Source of the DNA: Eledone cirrhosa
Lineage: Eukaryota
Length of the DNA stretch: 64,000 nucleotides
Assembly: GCA_964016885.1 (NCBI GenBank)
Contig: OZ024743.1
Span: 109,616,001-109,680,000, forward strand
Direction of reading: 5' to 3'
Below the pieces are notes generated by a model. The model saw nothing but the letters and a program-made list of their open reading frames with translations, was not told the DNA's origin and made no database searches. Shown here piece by piece: positions 6,327-57,082 of the stretch (position 1 is its first letter; each line of letters starts with the position of its first letter). The position numbers and the translations under genes were made by a program.

Positions 6327-7295
6327 TATATGTATATATATAAGGATTAAAATACTGGAGCGTGTTGGAGTTAAACACCCTATTCGTATTATAGAAATGA
6401 CAGCAAAAGGTATAGCTCAATGTAATTAAACAGAGCCGAAGAATTATGAAAATAACATGCGGAGTACTATAATAATGCCCTAGCTAATTCCGGTTACTCT
6501 AGTAAAACACATTATAATGATAGTAACCTTAGAAAGTCTCCGCTTACTTATAATAATAATAACATAATATCACATAACATGGCCATGAATGGGAGTAGGA
6601 AGCATAATAACCGTAGAAATTACATAGGTGTATCTGAACCCATCCATAAGTTAACCCACCGGACTCGTAATAGGGAATATAATACCTCTAGGAAACAAGT
6701 CGAACCATCTGAGCGCTCACTCATTGGTGATGATTTTGCTAGATCTAATTCTAATAATGTTGTTTCTACAGATCCTATTATTGGCCCTAATCCTTTTGAT
6801 GGGATTCCAAACGGCAGCAGATCTACTATACGTAGAAACAGTAAGAGACTTAATGGAATTTTGGCTGATTCTAATAATGCGGTTTTAACTAATCCTTGTA
6901 ATAACCCTAGTCTTCATAACGGGATATTAGATAATGGTAGAGTCGGTAAGGATAAAAATAGAAGGAGACTAAATACTTATTTTAACCCGCCATATAATTA
7001 GGAAGTATTAACTAATATCCCTAGGTCTTTCTTTTCTATCGTAGAGAAAAATGTCCCCCCTTCTCATAAATACCATAGTATTTTTAATAAAAATGTTATT
7101 AAACTTTCATTCTCTACCACCCCTAATATTAGTTCTCATTTAGCTAGCACTAACAATAGGAAAATTAGGGATGGATACTCCTCTCTACATAATACTAGTC
7201 TGAACAGATCTGTAAATGCCTTACCACCAGAGAAGACCTTATCTATTAGTAATCCTACGTGTAATGCATCACTACTTCAGCCAACCAATAGCACC

Positions 7296-7616
7296 CGGAA
7301 GTGTAACTGTAGAGTGAGTGCTAACTGCCCTTTAAACGGTAACTGCCTCTCTAAGAACATCGTCTATGCTTGCGTAGTTATAACTAATTCCTCTAATAGA
7401 ACTTATATAGGCTCTACATCTAACACTTTTAAGACTAGCTTTAATTCTCATATCTCTAATTTCAAACATGTTAAGTTTAAGAATTCTACTTCTTTAGCAC
7501 ACTATATCTGGGATCTTAAGGGGGCTAATATACCATATAGCCTTAATTGGCGTTTAGTAGCACGCTCTAATAACCTTTCTAAACATACTAAATTTTGTAA
7601 TCTCTGTATCCTCTAG
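7296..7616 (+). pseudogene. GIY-YIG endonuclease remnant of PLE
   Basis: NIVY...YIGSTSNTFK.SFNSH motif with flanking CxC/CxxC cysteines; premature stop at 7614-7616. Confidence 0.8.
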
Positions 7617-9450
7617 ACACACTATAATTTTCTATAGTGAATCCTTACTTAATAGAAAGTCTGAGATATTCTCTGCTTGCCCCCACGCTATTTCTAATTC
7701 TTACTTTTATTATAAACCTAAAGGTTCTAGTAGTATAAATTGTATCCATTAGCTGATATATTCCATTACTTATTTTTTTAGTTTGGGTTCTTTTTGTTTA
7801 CCACCATTATTATCATCATTATTATCATTGGTTTTTGACAACTTTTTATTCTAGCTCTGATAATCTTTTGGCTACTATACCATATCTATCTTCTTACACA
7901 TTAAATTTTCACTATTAACACCTATGAGTATATATCTGATTATATATTATATATTTTATATTATTTTATATTATTTTATTTTATTTCATTTTATTTTATT
8001 TTATTTTATTTTGATTCTTCTTTGGATAAACTCCCCCCCCCCCCATGCACACATAAACTTATTGTCAAGCCCTTCAAATATATTATGATTATATTTAATC
8101 CCCCCCTCTTTTATGCTCCTTTCTATTATATAATACAGTATATTGATTATGATTTTATGCTCCTTTGTATCCTACATACATTTCTTTTTTTCTGTCCCTA
8201 TTAGCCTACCATAATTCTGCTTAAGTCAGTTTTTTAGATATCGTTATGTAAATGATAGTAGAATAATTCATTCCTTTATATATATATTTATAGTCAAATA
8301 TTATTGTTTATGAATTTTGATTACTTAAACCATAGCTAATATTGTATTGCCTTATTAGGTATTTTAAATATTTTAAATATTAATTTATCAAATAGAGTTT
8401 TCGAGTCATTTATCTGGGTTGTTTCCTAAGTTTTTACTTAACTGCATGTGAGACCAAAGTAAATACTTTTGTCTTTGTTTTTTAATTTCCGGTTGATTTT
8501 ATTTATTTATTTATTTATTAATACTACTGTGCATTGTATTTTCTGTCTGGCCCTTATTCACTCATCCACATATATGTCTGTTTACCAACCTTGTAATTAT
8601 AAGTAATTATATATTATATTATGTTCATTATTTTATATTGAAGTTGTTATTGTACTATTGATCCTTATTACTTACCGTTGATTTTATGTAACATTATGAT
8701 ATGCTAAATTTTATATATCATGTAAGATGTTTATATTTTTGTACCATCATAATTTTGGGTACTGTACAATTTATATTTTTTTCTCACCTACTCTGTAACT
8801 CTATATGAATTGATTTGTTAACTTACATGCCATTATATATTATATATATTATTATATTATTATTATAGTATTATTGTGACATCTATATTGTTTGTGTAAA
8901 TTAACCGGAGATTATCTATTATATTATATAATATATTATATAATGATATAGTTTATTATATATTATATGTGTTACTTTTAATCATTTCATTACTTCATGT
9001 ATATTAGATATACGTATTATTATTATTTTTATTCCTATTATGCTTATTTATATTTAAACTCTTAATAAGGTTTAATTTGTGCTGTTAATGATGGATATGT
9101 GTATTGATGTATATGTATATGTGCGTACGTGTGCGTACATATATACATATGTATATTGTGCCTTTTAGTTTTAATTTTTAATTTTAATTTTAATATTGTT
9201 ACAAGTATATTATATTATATTATATTGTATTATATATAATTCCCGCTCTATATAACCACCTTTGTTTAGCTCTAGTTTTTTTTTGCTTTGGACTATATTT
9301 GTAATATGGTTCAAAATGTTATACACCTCCTTAGTGATTTTTATTATATATTTTTACCCATAATCTTCCAATACCTTAGTGTATGTACACTCCATATTCT
9401 TCGGAGTTTTCGGCTTGTATTGGCCGATAGTACTTCTAGTGGTTTCCATT

Positions 9451-9488
9451 GCCCTGATGAGTCCTTAATAGGACGAAACATTGTTGGC
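9451..9488 (+). ncRNA. Minimal type I hammerhead ribozyme
   Basis: gcc-CTGATGA-gtcc-ttaata-ggac-GAAA-c-att-GTT-ggc; all three stems pair. Confidence 0.85.
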
Positions 9489-9536
9489 TAATAAAGACGT
9501 TTGATGTATTGAATTGTTCTTTGTTTTATTTTCATA

Positions 9537-32267: not shown

Positions 32268-33816
<1,549 letters not shown>

Positions 33817-36339: not shown

Positions 36340-36470
<131 letters not shown>

Positions 36471-36544
36471 GTTCAAGTGTAACCAATCTTAAAGAAAGAG
36501 ATGGAGATAGGAGAGGAGGGATTGGTGAATTAGTTAGAATCCAA

Positions 36545-37610
36545 ATAATAATAGTGTCCGTTTACAATTGTTTCGCTACTCCATATAATATTTCTGGAAC
36601 AGATGACAATATATCATAATTGATCTGGTTGAGTTGAAAATAATTAGCATATTTAAATGACAGAGCAGCTCATCGGAACTTCAAAGGAATATAAATTAAA
36701 ATAACGAGAGAATGTTACATAATATAATGTTCCATATATTGGTTTTTACTATGGTGTATTGGTTGCATCAGTTGTCAGCCATAATCAAGCAGTATTCATC
36801 TGTCGAGGCTGCATTGTGTGAGATCTGCCTATGGGTAACAAGATCGCTGCCAAAGGGCATATTTACCTTACTAATTAGAGGGTGGTTTCAGGGGAAGTAA
36901 CTCCTCGAGAGATTAGAAATTGTGGGTGTTTATAGTTAAGCGCTATTTTTGTTATTTTTTAATTGAGAGACAATGTAGGGGAGGTAACTTATAATTATTC
37001 AAGTTGTTCATAGCAATTTAACTTATTAGCTACAAGTAAACATGGGGATACATGACTAAGTTGTGTCAAATATTCTATTGGCGAAGGAATTAGCCCTTCG
37101 ATGTTGACAGCTAATAGTTACCTCCGTTCTATCGTTAATCGGTTGAGGTCGTGATAGAGTTATGTAATATGCTTCCGTAATACAGAGATCACAATATTTT
37201 TTCGTCCATTGAACGGTTGGGCCCTAGCCACGATATCCCATTTTAGTGAGTGTTGAACGTTGTTTAATATAAGGTATTTAATGAGCCTAGCTAGCGATGT
37301 CGAACATCTGTGGCTAGGGTCTCGGAAGGAAAAAGAGTGCGCGTTATAGCGTACCTTAAAAGGGTTAGAGGTAGACCCGATATAAGAGCTGGTATTCGAA
37401 GCAGTTTTAACCGTGTACCTATAGACTATGTTGGGTGTCAGGCAGTGTCAGCAGTGTAATTTCTATTCCTTTCAAGTTCCGATGAGCCGCTCTGTCTTTT
37501 AAATATGTTAATTATTTGCAACTGAACCAGATCAATTATGATATATAGTCATCTGATCCAGAAATATCATATGGTGTAGCGAAACAATTGTAAACGGACA
37601 CTATTCTTAT
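36545..37610 (-). mobile_element. PLE 3' fragment with inverted pseudo-LTR copy
   Basis: Minus translation CLTPNIVYRYTVKTASNTSSYIGSTSNPFKVRYNAH...LKWDIVARAQPFNG..YCDLCITEAYYI (37445 to 37160). 36550-36695 and 37460-37605 form an inverted repeat carrying the HHR. Confidence 0.85.
37476..37595 (+). ncRNA. Variant hammerhead: CCGAUGA core with ~95-nt stem II (mirror copy 36560-36679, minus)
   Basis: gtt-CCGATGA-gccgctc...[95 nt]...gtgtagc-GAAA-caattg-TA-aac. In the mirror copy the stem II base reads gctgctc/gagtagc. Confidence 0.65.
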
Positions 37611-37715
37611 TAATATTATTATTATTATGCTCTACATTTCTTACATCAAACTAAAGTATGTTGACAATCTTTTAATATCTTCCTTGTGAAATGTGTGGTC
37701 TTGCTTTGCTTAACT

Positions 37716-37786
<71 letters not shown>

Positions 37787-37799
37787 ATATATATGTATA

Positions 37800-37922
<123 letters not shown>

Positions 37923-38493: not shown

Positions 38494-39369
38494 TCAATTA
38501 TTGATTGGTGGTTGTGTTTTATCTATAATTAGTGCTTCCTTAATTCTAAGATTGCCGAGGTTTCTTTCCTTAGTTTCTATCCTAACTATTATGGTTTTGT
38601 CGGTGTTTTTGCATTTAACTAGATGTTTCTTAAATGAGGAAGCGTTAGTATTGAGGTGTTCTTTTATTCTTATGTGGAGTGGTCTGGTGGTGCTACCTAC
38701 GTAGAAGTTGTTGCATTTGTCACACTCTAGTCTGTATACGACGTAAGCCTGGTGGCATAGGTCTGTGTCGTTGATGGGGCAGTTGGCTAGTCTGCAGCAG
38801 TTGTCATGTCTGGTGGAGTGTCTCTTGGCCAGCCGTCCGCGCAGAGAAGGACCCGAGTGGGTCAGTTGGATATCCAGTCCCTCTCGTCTGATGGCTCTGC
38901 GGATGGCTGTTGTTGTTTCTTCACTGAAGTGTGGGAGCTTCAGGAAGCAAGTGTTAGTGCCTCGGGTGTGGTTTCCTCTGTTCTTTCTGGCACGGTTTGT
39001 GGTGGAAGTCGTGTATCCGTTCAGTTTGAGTACTTCCAGGAAATGTGTGGTGTGTGTGTCTCGGTCTCTAGCGTCGGTGCATTTGTTCCGGATACGTGCC
39101 AGTTCGTTCCTTATGTATCCGAACTTGGCACCGAGTGGGAGGGCCGATCTGAAATGTACGAACAGGTCCCTGCTGGCGGCTTTTTTATAGAAGCAGGTGT
39201 TGATGTTGCCTTCCTCTGTTACCCTGAGTTGGAAGTCCAGTAGGGATAGGGATCCGCGGTCATCGGGGTGTTCCATGCTGAACTTTATACTGGCGTCCAT
39301 GCTGGAGAATGTTGTGTATATTTTATATGCCTCCTCACGGGATGATGTAAGGATGAGTATGTCATCTAC
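38494..39369 (-). CDS. PLE reverse transcriptase C-terminus + GIY-YIG endonuclease (partial)
   Basis: IKFSMEH..SLSLLD..FYKK..FVHFRSALP (RT thumb) and YVVYRLECDKCNNFYVGSTTRPLHIRIKEH..IKEALII (GIY-YIG). Confidence 0.9.
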   Translation of the reverse strand, partial: VDDILILTSSREEAYKIYTTFSSMDASIKFSMEHPDDRGSLSLLDFQLRVTEEGNINTCFYKKAASRDLFVHFRSALPLGAKFGYIRNELARIRNKCTDARDRDTHTTHFLEVLKLNGYTTSTTNRARKNRGNHTRGTNTCFLKLPHFSEETTTAIRRAIRREGLDIQLTHSGPSLRGRLAKRHSTRHDNCCRLANCPINDTDLCHQAYVVYRLECDKCNNFYVGSTTRPLHIRIKEHLNTNASSFKKHLVKCKNTDKTIIVRIETKERNLGNLRIKEALIIDKTQPPINN

Positions 39370-39607
39370 TGGCCATCACCTACATGAACTAGCTAGAATG
39401 CCGGGCCCTCAACACCTGCCATTCCCATGCCTTCTTCACCCGATATGTAGATGACATACTCATCCTTACAACATCCCGTGAGGAGGCAAATAAAATATAC
39501 ACAACATTCTTTTTTCTATGTCCATACCGGCATTGTTTTGGCTTTATTACACATATTCAAACGTTTATACCTCATTACACAATGCTTCAAGTGAACTATA
39601 ACCGCCT

Positions 39608-43371: not shown

Positions 43372-43438
43372 TTTTATTATGCGCATTTCAAAAACAAACA
43401 TCATCATGCAATAATATTTGTGTTTTCATCAGATAAAA
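43372..43438 (-). ncRNA. Type I hammerhead, intact
   Basis: Reverse complement ttttat-CTGATGA-aaacacaaatattattgcatgatgatgtttgttttt-GAAA-tgcgca-TA-ataaaa: 6-bp stem I, long stem II, palindromic stem III. Confidence 0.85.
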
Positions 43439-45101: not shown

Positions 45102-45186
45102 GCAAAGTTTTATTTAAATTGTTGGGTTAACAACGAGTAAATATTTATAACTGATATAAAAGCACTCAACAAGTATTTGGAGTATA

Positions 45187-46799
45187 TTTACGATATTAAA
45201 TAAATGGAAACTATATTTATATTTATAAAACCATATTTATTTCATTATATATATTTCAGGGATATCATATTAAAAATATGTTATACCTTCTTCAGACAAA
45301 ATACAATATAAACAGTCTTATAAATAGATAGATTCGACATACCTTTCAACTTCGACTTCTATTTGAAAAGTTGATTTGGTAGTGAAAAAAATATTAGGGA
45401 CAGTTACAAAAAGAAAGAAAGAAAAACGAAGAAAAGGAAGAAATGCATGCAACTAAATAGAGAGAGATAGATATAAAGAGATAGATAGAGAGAAGAAATT
45501 CATGTAAAGAAACAGAGAGAGATATATAGAGAGAGGAAAAAACCCAGAGGGAGATGGATAGAGAGAGAGAGAGAGAATAGAGGAGAGAGAGAGAGAGAGA
45601 AAATATATTGAGATAGATATAGATAGAGAAAGAGAGAAAGAAACTAGGTAGTTGGGCACCAGTTGAATGACGTATCAATGATATATTTATTTATTTACTT
45701 ATTTATTTATTTATTTATTTATTTAGTTCTAGTATTAATGTAGAGAGAGATATATGTGGTTAAGAGAGAAAACAGCCGTTACATAGAGAGAAAAGAAAAA
45801 TATCCAGACAAAAACGAGGCAGATTTAAAACACTATGTTTCATCAAAGTAAAAAATATCAATTCGTATAAAACAGGCATTATAATGTAAATATCAGTATT
45901 CATGAATGAGACACGTATCAATAATGTGTGAAAAATAATGATCTTATGTCTAGTTTAAAATTCCTAGGTTTATATTAGTGTTGAGATAAAATAGAAGGTT
46001 ATCCCAGATTGTATACTATATACATCCATGTGAATTTACGTGATCAGCTCTGCAAATTCATATTGCACACGAAAACATTCCCATTGTGCTATAAAAATTT
46101 AAGTATACATATATGTGTACATACACACAAATATATATAGAGTCTACATTAATTTTAACAATACTATTCATGTCTTTACTCTACATGATTATCGTTCAAG
46201 CATAAATAGAGAACAGATATCAATATATCAATAAAAATATCAGAAACGAAAAGTCAATAAAAAACAAAAAAAATCAAAAAATATTAAAAAATAAAAATAT
46301 TAAAAATATTAAAAATATTAAAATAAAAATAGAACATAGTATGCCCCGCAAATCAATCACAGAGATCAACCCTTCAAAGTTAATTGACAATATATTGCCA
46401 AGTTCGTTATAAGCATCAGAATCAAAAGCAAACAAAACCAAAAATTATTTACCAAATCCTGTCTAGCAGAAAACGTTCCAAAAGTTTAGGATACCCATTT
46501 GATCTACAGATGGTCTTATATTTAATATAGAAGTTTATCTAGTGTAAAATTTATTCGATATATTTGGAGCATCAGCTTTTAGGGTAGTTTAATTATTCAT
46601 GAAGAATGTTTAAAATAAAAAGGAATCGAAAGATTTATCGGCGAGTTTCATAAATAATTATAAATCAAATTAAATATACTACATTTTAAATTTATATTTA
46701 TATTTAAAAGTTGAGTTCAATCTATGTCTGCAGCAACTGAATAAATTTGTCCGTAAATTAAGGGAATTTTTAGATTTTAGTATAAAGAATATCTCCTCC
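45187..46799 (-). repeat. ~1.6-kb inverted copy of the 3' end of the adjacent PLE
   Basis: Near-identical reverse complement of 48702-50320, including the HHR-like motif (45244-45297). Confidence 0.95.
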
Positions 46800-46853
46800 G
46801 AAAGGTTGTGTTCTGTTCTCAATTTCCAACTCATGCATTATACAAGATGCCTC

Positions 46854-48822
46854 AAGAGAAACTTCAAAGGCCAGGAATATCTGAAAGGCATTAAGGATAA
46901 TATTGAGAGCTTAGAGAAAACTGAGAAGATTTTGGTGAAATCTGACAAGACCAACAACCTCTATGGAGTGCAAAAAGACATGTATAATGGCCTAATACTG
47001 AAAGAACTGAGGAAAAAGTACAAGGTAGCAGATAAGGCCGAGCTTGAGAAAATGAATGTTGAGGCATCTTGTATAATGCATGAGTTGGAAATTGAGAACA
47101 GAACACAACCTTTCGTGCCCAGGAAACCGAAGATCAATATGAAAGATCACAAAAGTAATTTTGAAAATGACCTGCCAGTCAGATTGATTGCACCATCAAA
47201 ATCAGACCTGGGTAAACTAAGCAAAAACATTCTAGACAGGGTGATACAGCAAATTAAACACTTGAATTGTGTACCTAACTTGAGCTTGTGGAAGGGAACT
47301 GGAGAGGTTGTTGAGTGGTTTAAAGAAATTAAATATAACAATAATAATAAGTTTATTCAACTAGATATCGCTAACTATTATTCATCTACTATCCCTAATC
47401 TACTAAATAAGGCACTAAATTACGCATTCAAACATACAGACCTAACTAGCAATGAAATGCACATTATATTATCGGCTAGGAAAACACTGATAGAATTTAA
47501 TGACCAACTATGGACCAGAGCAGATAGAGATAACAATTTCGACATTACTATGGGATCATCCGACTCAGCTCAGGTAATTGACCTTGTGGGCCTATTTTTA
47601 ATCAATTCGCTGCATAGGAAAATACCCGGTGCTACCGGAGGTTTATATAGAGATGACATGCTCTTACTTATTGAAAATAATAACTCTAAACTAAATTGAA
47701 AAAGAAAACAAATTACACAATTTTTTAATTACTTTAATCTAAAAATAGAAATTGAGAATATCCATAGAATAGTCAATTTCCTAGATGTAACATTAAATCT
47801 GAACACATGTCTTCACTATCCATTTCACAAGTTGAATGAAAACTTAAACTATGTCAGCTTTAACTCTAACCACCCCAGATCTGTTAAAAATACTATAGTA
47901 AACTCTGTTCAAAATCGTATCTCTAGAATCTCATCAAATAAAAAGATTTTCGACGAAAAAGCCCAGTATTACAATGAAGCGTTAGCTAGAGCAGGATATA
48001 GTGATAAAATTATGTACATAGATAATAATAGACAAACTAACCAAAATAACAACCATTTTAATTACGGCAACAACTTTAACAACTATAATAGAAAGCATTA
48101 CAATAATTCCAAAAGCCAAAAAAGAAATAGAACTAGGAATATAATATGGTTTGCCCCCCTCCCCCCCTTTCTCACTAAACATTAAAACCCACATCGCTAA
48201 ACTATTTTTTAATGCTCTTGATAATCGCTTCCCTAGAACACATAGGTATCACTCAATTTTCAATAGACATACTATAAAATTAACCTACTCATCCACCAAA
48301 AATTTAGCACAAAATATTAATAGAATAAATAATAGGAATTTAAAACCTAGCCAAAATACCGATAATAGCATAAATAATATCCAAGTTAACAAATGTAACT
48401 GTAGAGATAGATCTAAATGTCCGTTAAATAACAATTACTTAGTTAAAAATATAATATACAACTGTAATGTTAAAACGGACTTAAATTCTTTTAACTATGT
48501 TGGCTCCACCTCGGCAGAATTTAAACTTCGCTATAATAACCACAAGAATTCTTTCACAGATCCAAGCAAAAAATCCTCAACATCACTATCAGGCCTACTC
48601 TGGCAACTTAGGCATGATAACGTTGGATATTCAACGGCTTGGAATATAGTCTCAAGAGGGATTCCTTTTAATTCATCCTCTGAGACATGTGACCTCTGCG
48701 TGGAGGAGATATTCTTTATACTAAAATCTAAAAATTCCCTTAATTTACGGACAAATTTATTCAGTTGCTGCAGACATAGATTGAACTCAACTTTTAAATA
48801 TAAATATAAATTTAAAATGTAG
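46854..48822 (+). pseudogene. PLE RT + GIY-YIG ORF with one in-frame TGA (47697-47699) and one frameshift in a poly-C run (~48154-48167)
   Basis: ORFs 46806-47699 and 47832-48185 are in the same frame, with 44 sense codons between them after the TGA; 48151-48822 continues in another frame. Confidence 0.9.
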
Positions 48823-49775
48823 TATATTTAATTTGATTTATAATTATTTATGAAACTCGCCGATAAATCTTTCGATTCCTTTTTATTTTAAACATTCTTC
48901 ATGAATAATTAAACTACCCTAAAAGCTGATGCTCCAAATATATCGAATACATTTTACACTAGATAAACTTCTATATTAAATATAAGACCATCTGTAGATC
49001 AAATGGGTATCCTAAACTTTTGGAACGTTTTCTGCTAGACAGGATTTGGTAAATAACTTTTGGTTTTGTTTGCTTTTGATTCTGATGCTTATAACGAACT
49101 TGGCAATATATTGTCAATTAACTTTGAAGGGTTGATCTCTGTGATTGATTTGCGGGGCATACTATGTTCTATTTTTATTTTAATATTTTTAATATTTTTA
49201 ATATTTTTATTTTTTAATATTTTTTTGATTTTTTTGTTTTTTATTGACTTTTCGTTTCTGATATTTTTATTGATATATTGATATCTGTTCTCTATTTATG
49301 CTTGAACGATAATCATGTAGAGTAAAGACATGAATAGTATTGTTAAAATTAATGTAGACTCTATATATATTTGTGTGTATGTACACATATATGTATACTT
49401 AAATTTTTATAGCACAATGGGAATGTTTTCGTGTGCAATATGAATTTGCAGAGCTGATCACGTAAATTCACATGGATGTATATAGTATACAATCTGGGAT
49501 AACCTTCTATTTTATCTCAACACTAATATAAACCTAGGAATTTTAAACTAGACATAAGATCATTATTTTTCACACATTATTGATACGTGTCTCATTCATG
49601 AATACTGATATTTACATTATAATGCCTGTTTTATACGAATTGATATTTTTTACTTTGATGAAACATAGTGTTTTAAATCTGCCTCGTTTTTGTCTGGATA
49701 TTTTTCTTTTCTCTCTATGTAACGGCTGTTTTCTCTCTTAACCACATATATCTCGCTCTACATTAATACTAGAGC

Positions 49776-49810
<35 letters not shown>

Positions 49811-50320
49811 GTAAATAAATAAATATATCATTGATACGTCATTCAACTGGTGCCCAACTACCTAGTTTCTTTCTCTCTTTCTCTATCTATATCTATCTCT
49901 ATAAATTTTCTCTCTCTCTCTCTCTCTCCTCTCTTCTCTCTCTCTCTCTCTATCTATCTCCCTCTGGGTTTTTTCCTCTCTCTATATATCTCTCTCTGTT
50001 TCTTTACATGAATTTCTTCTCTCTATCTATCTCTCTATATCTATCTCTCTCTATTTAGTTGCATGCATTTCTTCCTTTTCTTCGTTTTTCTTTCTTTCTT
50101 TTTGTAACTGTGCCTAATATTTTTTTCACTACCAAATCAACTTTTCAAATAGAAGTCGAAGTTGAAAGGTATGTCGAATCTATCTATTTATAAGACTGTT
50201 TATATTGTATTTTGTCTGAAGAAGGCATAACATATTTTTAATATGATATCCCTGAAATATATATAATGAAATAAATATGGTTTTATAAATATAAATATAG
50301 TTTCCATTTATTTAATATCG
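46854..50320 (+). mobile_element. Longest Penelope-like element in the window (5'-truncated)
   Basis: RT motifs VKSDKTNNLY, MKDHK..PVRLI, FIQLDIANYY, ITMGSSDSAQVIDLVG, GLYRDD, VNFLDVTL, SNHP; GIY-YIG NIIYNC..YVGSTS..FKLRYNNH..CDLCVEE; 3' HHR-like motif at 50211-50268 then AATAAA. Confidence 0.95.
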
Positions 50321-50342
50321 TATATATATATATATATATATA

Positions 50343-55345: not shown

Positions 55346-55726
55346 TATATATATATATGTGTGTGTGTGGGGGGGCGCGTGTGTGCGTGTGTGCGTGCGT
55401 GTGTGTTTGTGTGTGAGTGTGTATGTGTGTTTGGTGTGTGTGTGTGTGTGTCTATGTTGTGTATATATGTATTGTTATAATGTGGAAGGATCATACCACT
55501 AATAAAAGACTTACGTCCCTCATGTGTTTAACTTGGTTTGTATTATTAGTTAGGTAATTTATCCATTCTATTATATACATGTATGAATTTGTGTATGTTC
55601 ATATGTGAGCGTGTATATCTGAATGTGTGTAATTCAGTGAATATAATGAATATAATTACAAACACTCGCGAACACAAAAACAGACACATTCGCACAAACA
55701 CACACACACGCATATATATATATATA

Positions 55727-57082
<1,356 letters not shown>

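What the first reader, a model, noticed from the sequence alone, without database searches (positions are those of the whole stretch)
36560..37595. Hammerhead variant with CCGAUGA core and ~95-nt stem II insertion
Seen: both arms of this inverted repeat (36560-36679 minus, 37476-37595 plus) keep gtt-CCGATGA...GC-GAAA-CAATTG-TA-aac although they differ at many other positions. So the U4-to-C change and the long stem II are family traits rather than one-off decay. The insert has internal complementarity (cagat...atctg). Inference: a non-canonical PLE hammerhead that length-limited motif searches would miss; the enlarged domain could be a protein-binding or regulatory module.
Basis: partly seen in the sequence, partly recalled or inferred. 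Interest (0 to 1): 0.75.

Follow-up and report, generated by a model that had tools for sequence, protein, structure and literature searches.

The report
Long-armed C4 hammerhead in Penelope retroelement
This is the tail of a broken copy of a common jumping gene whose hammerhead RNA motif has C in place of a normally fixed U and a 95-base side arm; related families keep the odd core and show paired changes in its stems, so it is likely a real but slow self-cutter that standard searches miss, though cutting is untested.

Summary
Confirmed. Both arms carry a type I hammerhead motif: core CCGAUGA, 95-nt stem II, palindromic stem III. They are the two ends of one 5'-truncated insertion of a Hydra-clade Penelope-like element in (TA)n.
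C4 is the family state: 492 exact CCGA against 17 CTGA copies. The two odd traits are separable. Sister subfamily A3 has the same ~96-nt arm with canonical CUGAAGA (52 of 59), and other Hydra families have C4 with 12-20-nt arms.
A distant sister family (endonuclease 47-56% identical, flanks at shuffle level) keeps the same core and an arm of 99 nt. Four of 10 tested pairs changed on both sides, all on one branch. The arm's interior is no better conserved than neutral UTR and folds poorly in this family, so a dedicated protein-binding module is unsupported.
No copy ends at the predicted cut, so templates are likely uncut RNA. Rfam and the published descriptor miss the motif. Cleavage is untested. 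Earlier notes of this scan reported C4 cores in this genome and long arms in other repeats.

The parts
36466..37449 (-). 5'-truncated direct copy of a Hydra-clade Penelope-like element (family A1): endonuclease end, 3' UTR, pLTR with an internal deletion at about 36545; left end approximate
37059..37447 (-). C-terminal part of the GIY-YIG endonuclease, frameshifted near 37200
   Evidence: tblastn 94% and 90% to the family ORF from L054; Pfam GIY-YIG E 0.0076, below the curated cut-off
36560..36679 (-). hammerhead motif in the element's sense orientation, about 376 nt after the stop codon
37457..37722 (+). inverted, 5'-truncated pLTR copy at the head of the insertion; 7-nt filler at 37450-37456
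37476..37478 (+). stem I, 5' strand GTT (pairs with AAC 37593-37595)
   Evidence: middle pair U-A in lineage A, C-G in family M
37479..37485 (+). core CCGAUGA; C4 at 37480
37486..37580 (+). 95-nt stem II domain: ~10-bp basal helix, A/U-rich linkers, inner hairpin
37581..37592 (+). GAAA, palindromic stem III ACAAUUGU (37584-37591), predicted cut after GUA (A 37592)
   Evidence: palindrome duplex -6.4 kcal/mol; cut site by analogy with known hammerheads
37600..37630 (+). (ATT)n tract just 3' of the hammerhead; a SINE-like repeat sits in it in many other copies
37723..37920 (.). (TA)n target microsatellite on the right; a (TA)n tract also flanks the left end at about 36345-36462

Best explanation
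The two motifs are the ends of one dead, truncated insertion of a Hydra-clade Penelope-like retroelement, and the family's hammerhead is likely a real but slow self-cutter, predicted to work only as a dimer and probably with help from the element's protein. Shown: the element, its copy number, the fixed C4, the conserved core and the paired changes in stem I and the base of stem II. Inferred: two transcripts or two pLTRs pair through the ACAAUUGU palindrome to build stem III; C4 weakens the uridine turn and slows cleavage after GUA; the basal helix of stem II closes the core. The rest of the arm is inferred to be a tolerated, expandable loop, grown partly by internal duplication. Slow cutting would cost little, because genomic copies run 134 or about 310 nt past the cut site and so were likely copied from uncut RNA. 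At this locus a read-through transcript is predicted to lock both arms into one long hairpin.
For: Element identity: ORF with DKT/DKS, RWK, CxCX5C, CxxC..E..N..CxH in fetched copies, matching the Hydra definition (PMC8557442 section 11). Position in the pLTR, where Hydra elements carry hammerheads. It is the only C[CT]GANGA between stop codon and pLTR end in the two long copies that keep that region, L052 and L054. C4 fixed: 492 vs 17; 21 of 22 parsed copies picked by the endonuclease region. The CTGA copies match ordinary CpG loss: 27 of 31 intact at C4, 28 of 31 at two control CpGs. Selection on the core: family M keeps CCGATGAG...CGAAACAATTGT in its consensus while its flanks are 48-50% identical to A1 against 47-53% for shuffles. 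Covariation: 4 of 10 pairs change on both sides, 93% of 230 cells paired, score 0.357 against at most 0.103 for slid registers. Subfamily A3 has canonical CUGAAGA at the same position with the same arm. Uncut templates: 0 of 143 3' alignment ends and 0 of 87 5' starts fall within 5 nt of the cut. Precedents: metazoan PLE hammerheads cleave weakly and as dimers (PMC4209133); the anole PLE hammerhead needs the element's protein and is not needed for insertion in vitro (PMC11167929); a viroid U4C variant is much slower in vitro yet viable (PMC3088659).
Against: No cleavage data. In a saturation mutagenesis of a type III hammerhead, single and double mutants of the CUGA turn had low activity, apart from the C3-G8 swap (PMC9901934). 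All both-sided changes arise on one branch (A versus M), so they are four changes in one comparison; within lineage A, 0 of 19 predicted pairs show one. The young family has the weakest arm: a C-A mismatch and G-U pairs in the basal helix, z +0.13. Stem I is only 3 bp. A competing hairpin GUUC/GAGC can sequester the core. The lack of ends at the cut fits a dead motif equally well. Loose patterns of this kind also hit LINE coding sequence by chance (families E and F).
Confidence: 0.62

Rival explanations
1. The C4 form no longer cuts. The hammerhead fold is kept because the element's RT/endonuclease binds it, for example to place reverse-transcription start sites in the pLTR.
For: Copies extend past the cut site. 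Cleavage is dispensable for insertion in vitro in the anole element. CUGA-turn mutants are poorly active. C4 families reached hundreds to over a thousand copies.
Against: The catalytic G8 and G12, the C3-G8 pair and an NUH triplet (GUA in A, GUC in M) are all kept between A and M. A3 has U4 in the same context. A natural U4C hammerhead still supports viroid infection.
Confidence: 0.2
2. The long arm is a dedicated module, a protein dock or tertiary brace, that rescues or regulates the C4 core.
For: Arm length stays at 91-99 nt in A1, A2, A3 and M although flanks diverged. It folds well in A2, A3 and M (z -2.4, -3.7, -6.8). The third basal pair is often a mismatch and the fourth is G-U in 23 of 23 rows. 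PLE hammerheads can be protein-assisted.
Against: The interior evolves at the neutral rate between A1 and A3. Inner hairpins of A and M cannot be aligned in one register. No shared pseudoknot. C4 occurs with 12- and 20-nt arms and the long arm occurs with U4. The most recent, most abundant family has the worst fold.
Confidence: 0.14
3. The motif is a chance match or one-off decay, multiplied by copy number.
For: Similar patterns hit LINE coding regions in this genome. The two arms alone are not significant (P 0.075).
Against: Those false hits lack stem I and have G at position 17, whereas this motif has stems I-III, GUA, the pLTR position, a canonical sister subfamily and covariation.
Confidence: 0.04

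Closest known systems
Hydra-clade Penelope-like elements and their hammerheads (Craig et al. 2021, PMC8557442; section 11, passages, supplement part 2 and term searches)
   Same: C-terminal GIY-YIG, DKT-type motif, RWK, CxCX5C linker, CxxC and CxH, (TA)n targets, inverted 5'-truncated head, type I hammerhead in the pLTR with short stem III.
   Different: Every Hydra hammerhead listed in File S2 has a CUGA core and a loop 2 of 3-10 nt. Here the core is CCGA and stem II spans 95 nt. The two 3' ends lie about 180 nt apart, against the 30-40-bp tail described.
Minimal hammerheads of metazoan PLEs (Cervera and De la Pena 2014, PMC4209133; parts 1-2 of 4 and supplement passages)
   Same: Type I, short stem I, G10.1-C11.1, palindromic stem III, predicted dimer, low activity.
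   Different: Their descriptor demands CUGANGA, stem II of 3-7 bp and loop 2 of 3-10 nt. The core variant reported in the parts read is U3-A8, not C4.
Viroid U4C hammerhead variant (Ambros and Flores 1998, not held; seen only as cited in Perreault et al. 2011, PMC3088659, passages and section 8)
   Same: Natural U-to-C change at position 4, slower in vitro but compatible with replication.
   Different: A viroid variant, not the majority state of multi-copy genomic retroelement families.
Poseidon element of Anolis carolinensis (PMC11167929; passages)
   Same: pLTR hammerhead, uncut RNA as template, two internal start sites giving two 3' ends, preference for ATT.
   Different: Other PLE clade; its hammerhead overlaps the ORF start. 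Its activity and protein dependence were measured; here nothing is measured.

Membership tests
Type I hammerhead ribozyme | Core CUGANGA | tested here: not met
   CCGAUGA in 492 of 509 exact matches; met in sister subfamily A3. Filed as a variant, not as a canonical member.
Type I hammerhead ribozyme | GAAA, A15.1-U16.1, NUH cleavage triplet, C3-G8, G10.1-C11.1 | tested here: met
Type I hammerhead ribozyme | Stems I, II and III around the core, with covariation | tested here: met
   4 of 10 pairs change on both sides between A and M; one branch only; stem III does not covary
Type I hammerhead ribozyme | Tertiary contact between stems I and II | tested here: inconclusive
   no pairing of 6 bp or more shared by A1, A3 and M between arm and flanks; non-canonical contacts cannot be seen this way
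Type I hammerhead ribozyme | Match to an Rfam hammerhead model | tested here: not met
   no hammerhead among 8 matches at E up to 10 in 36400-37720
Type I hammerhead ribozyme | Site-specific self-cleavage | not testable with these tools
   no assay possible; no RNA run listed
Hydra-clade PLE | RT with DKT-type and RWK motifs, C-terminal GIY-YIG | tested here: met
   SDKTKNLY in L035, RWK-encoding start in L047, GIY-YIG-type endonuclease at the ORF end
Hydra-clade PLE | CxCX5C linker, CxxC and CxH around conserved E and N, no CCHH | tested here: met
   CNCRYPNAC, CDLC..E, N..E, CQH read from translations
Hydra-clade PLE | (TA)n insertion, pLTR with inverted 5'-truncated head | tested here: met
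   L058 shows the pLTR running into the next ORF start
Hydra-clade PLE | Placement with published Hydra RTs in a tree | not tested
   the tree holds only endonucleases from this genome
Non-LTR retrozyme | Non-coding tandem repeat of a few hundred bases | tested here: not met
   the family has an RT-endonuclease ORF upstream of the motif

The most novel reading that the evidence does not exclude
A clade of Hydra retroelements has evolved a C4 hammerhead that is switched on only by the element's own protein, with the base of a giant stem II as the docking arm: a natural protein-gated ribozyme that lets uncut RNA serve as template and is invisible to current searches. Giant stem II arms of 60-100 nt would be a general, uncatalogued feature of animal PLE hammerheads.
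Probability: 0.2. Interest if true: 0.75.

Novelty: new variant of a known kind. Interest (0 to 1): 0.48.

Why it matters
U4 is treated as fixed in hammerhead descriptors, and the one natural exception I found cited is a viroid variant. Here C4 is the majority state in several retroelement families whose endonucleases are only 40-56% identical. The genome also supplies a near-matched control: A1 (C4) and A3 (U4) share stem I, stem III and the same long arm. This makes the open question of what PLE hammerheads are for directly testable. It also shows that descriptor and Rfam searches undercount animal hammerheads, both for the core and for arm length.

Tried and rejected
Rfam: no hammerhead in the region at E up to 10 or among the 150 of 219 window matches listed. 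No RNA holder listed, so expression and cleavage in vivo were not examined. DNA reads and contigs list no difference at C4 (37480) at the thresholds used; what the coded organisms are is unknown and some depths are low, so I give this little weight. Excess conservation of the arm: a single-copy comparison suggested it (80% vs 54-56%), but this came from a 39-nt indel and vanished with majority sequences. Pseudoknot between arm and flanks: none shared. Alternative or nested canonical core inside the element: none. Covariation of the inner hairpin: alignment ambiguous, not counted. Families E and F looked like C4 hammerheads but are LINE coding sequence. One fold (L123) used wrong coordinates and was ignored. 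One row of alignment A1 (L170) was mis-windowed and lacks the core. The direction of change at position 4 is unresolved: deep forks of the endonuclease tree are open. Papers not held: Lunse et al. 2017 on PLE hammerhead variants and Ambros and Flores 1998; the first may already describe C4 or long-arm forms. File 1 of the PMC4209133 supplement and the bioRxiv supplements could not be searched.

Full report
Observation. The motif GTT-CCGATGA-[95 nt]-GAAA-CAATTG-TA-AAC is at 37476-37595 (+) and 36560-36679 (-). The arms align over 155 bp with 12 differences. Each arm differs at 7 positions from an intact copy, L013.

What the locus is. The minus strand between the arms encodes the end of a GIY-YIG endonuclease with one frameshift. 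The window lies in a 2,996-Mb genome, host not determined, where the motif search had 1041 candidates, 40 of them scored. Thirty-eight loci picked by the endonuclease region gave longer ORFs with DKT/DKS, RWK, CxCX5C, CxxC and CxH motifs, the features of the Hydra clade (PMC8557442 section 11). The locus is a 5'-truncated direct copy (about 36466-37449, minus) with an inverted pLTR head (37457-37722) between (TA)n tracts, the usual PLE insertion form. A read-through transcript is predicted to pair 143-145 of the 155 arm positions with each other, so this copy would not fold as a ribozyme.

C4 is the family state. Exact patterns gave 492 CCGA and 17 CTGA, controls 0. Among the 38 endonuclease-picked loci, 22 parsed: 21 CCGATGA, 1 CTGATGA. 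Of the 16 that did not parse, by eye 6 have CCGAT, 1 CTGAT, 2 another change and 7 lack the core. The CpG at C4 is intact in 27 of 31 copies, two control CpGs in 28 of 31, so CTGA copies look like ordinary decay. Copies differ from their majority by 2.5% on average.

The two traits separate. Wider patterns revealed older relatives. A2 has CCGATGA and 91-94 nt in its full-length copies (these were picked by patterns that allowed either base). A3, endonuclease about 80-84% identical, has the same ~96-nt arm with a canonical core: 52 of 59 pattern matches read CTGA and 7 CCGA. Conversely, Hydra families B and C (endonuclease 40% and 46-48%) carry C4 with 20- and 12-nt arms; these were found with patterns, and C also has CTGA copies, so their majority state was not counted. 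Family D, 60-nt arm, has 1118 exact matches, 70 CCGA and 30 CTGA among the first 100 listed, counted by eye; I did not link D to an ORF. A second Hydra element in the window has canonical CUGAAGA with 31 nt.

Selection and covariation. Family M has an endonuclease 47-56% identical to A1 and groups with lineage A (support 94/96, just under the starred level). Its majority core is CCGATGA: 21 C4, 9 T4 and 2 without core in 32 rows, after dropping 4 duplicate rows; the query itself had CTGA. Its arm is 99 nt. Against A1, 150 nt upstream and 120 nt downstream are at shuffle level (0.48-0.50 vs 0.47-0.53) and the arm is slightly above (0.56-0.57 vs 0.49-0.50), while CCGATGAG and CGAAACAATTGT are identical. 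On 23 rows (13 A, 10 M) and the 10 pairs anchored by the core, 4 pairs change on both sides: one in stem I and three in the base of stem II. Cells paired were 93%, and the score 0.357 against at most 0.103 for slid registers. These are changes on a single branch, and the shuffle control ignores relatedness. Within lineage A, 0 of 19 predicted pairs covary on both sides; changes are one-sided, such as C-G to U-G.

The arm's interior. Between A1 and A3 majorities it is 85% identical, the 3' UTR 82%, third codon positions 86%: no excess conservation. Folding z-scores are +0.13 (A1), -2.43 (A2), -3.69 (A3) and -6.80 (M). The inner hairpins of A and M cannot be put in one register, and no arm-flank pairing is shared. 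A 17-of-24 self-match at period 31 (reached by 17 of 2000 shuffles) suggests growth by internal duplication. Large arms are common here. Pattern matches against reversed controls were 1264 vs 27 for gaps of 39-68 (CC only), 299 vs 55 for 69-90 and 165 vs 41 for 97-126. They include canonical-core motifs with 79-102-nt arms and 4-5-bp stem I, but also false hits in LINE coding sequence.

Mechanism. Stem III is 2 bp as a monomer but an 8-bp palindrome as a dimer (-6.4 kcal/mol), as in known PLE hammerheads, which cleave weakly (review passages). U4 contacts the A6-N7 phosphate. A viroid U4C variant is much slower in vitro yet infectious, and CUGA-turn mutants were poorly active in a saturation screen. 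In loci L001-L073, 3' alignment ends pile at +130 to +139 (55 of 143) and at +310 or beyond (51, of which 6 run on into the next ORF); none lies within 5 nt of the cut, nor does any of 87 5' starts. This fits copying from uncut RNA at two internal start sites, as shown for the anole element, whose hammerhead is protein-assisted and dispensable for insertion in vitro. I took the 'uncut template' idea from note e1-10319565 and that paper, then tested it. Best reading: a slow, dimer-type, probably protein-assisted ribozyme (0.62). Rivals: a dead fold kept for protein binding (0.2), the arm as a dedicated module (0.14), chance (0.04).

What is known. The published descriptor requires CUGANGA and a loop 2 of 3-10 nt. 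All Hydra hammerheads listed in File S2 of PMC8557442 are CUGA with loops of 3-10 nt; the longest loop in that table is 35 nt, in a spike-moss element. Searches for 'hammerhead'+'U4C' (1 paper), +'CCGAUGA' (1 listing on therapeutic ribozymes, not read), 'hammerhead ribozyme'+'octopus', a PLMVd query and long-stem-II phrases (0) gave no description of this variant. A 2026 preprint on retrozymes has no passage on it (term search). Lunse et al. 2017, the most relevant paper, is not held, so novelty is provisional. Papers seen: PMC4209133 parts 1-2 of 4 and supplement passages; PMC8557442 passages, section 11, supplement part 2 and term searches; PMC3088659 passages and section 8; passages only of PMC11167929, PMC9901934, PMC6765202, PMC10085705, PMC6155905 and PMC11014351.

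Verdict. Real, family-wide and under selection in the core and basal stems: a new variant of a known kind. The long arm looks tolerated rather than dedicated. Activity is untested. Interest 0.48.

Noticed in passing
window 45183-50328: Near full-length Hydra-clade PLE with long inverted arms and canonical CUGAAGA hammerheads (31-nt stem II) at 50213-50268 (+) and 45243-45298 (-).
   Followed up: partly
window 6456-7625 (+) and about 9450-9490 (+): Another Hydra endonuclease fragment; a canonical 14-nt-arm hammerhead lies 1.8 kb downstream, link unsure.
   Followed up: partly
window 43375-43435 (-): Canonical CUGAUGA hammerhead motif with 36-nt stem II and palindrome AUGCGCAU.
   Followed up: no
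window 38494-39375 (-): Fragment of a different PLE type: RT end plus GIY-YIG, Pfam E 3.6e-7.
   Followed up: partly
L001-L073, family A1 pLTR: Two fixed 3' ends, 134 and about 310 nt past the predicted cut: a tail of about 180 nt, against 30-40 bp in the literature. The inverted head of this insertion ends at the first, the direct copy at the second.
   Followed up: partly
L002, L005, L011 and others; window 18362: A SINE-like repeat sits repeatedly in the (ATT)n tract 7-13 nt after the hammerhead; one copy of its core lies in the window.
   Followed up: partly
L123, L159, L163, L250, L257; L167, L168; L171, L178, L251: Several unrelated repeats with canonical cores and 79-103-nt stem II arms, some multi-branched; L167 and L168 differ by paired changes in stem I.
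   Followed up: partly
L121-L149 (family D): Abundant short, often fold-back repeat with CCGACGA core, 60-nt arm and ACGCGCGU palindrome; at least 1118 exact matches; no ORF linked.
   Followed up: partly
L151, L172; L091, L101: Hammerhead-like pattern matches that are coding sequence of two LINE families: a caution for relaxed motif scans.
   Followed up: yes
window 32614-33459 and 55724-56933: Other long inverted or inverted-tandem repeats (338- and 306-nt arms), not examined.
   Followed up: no
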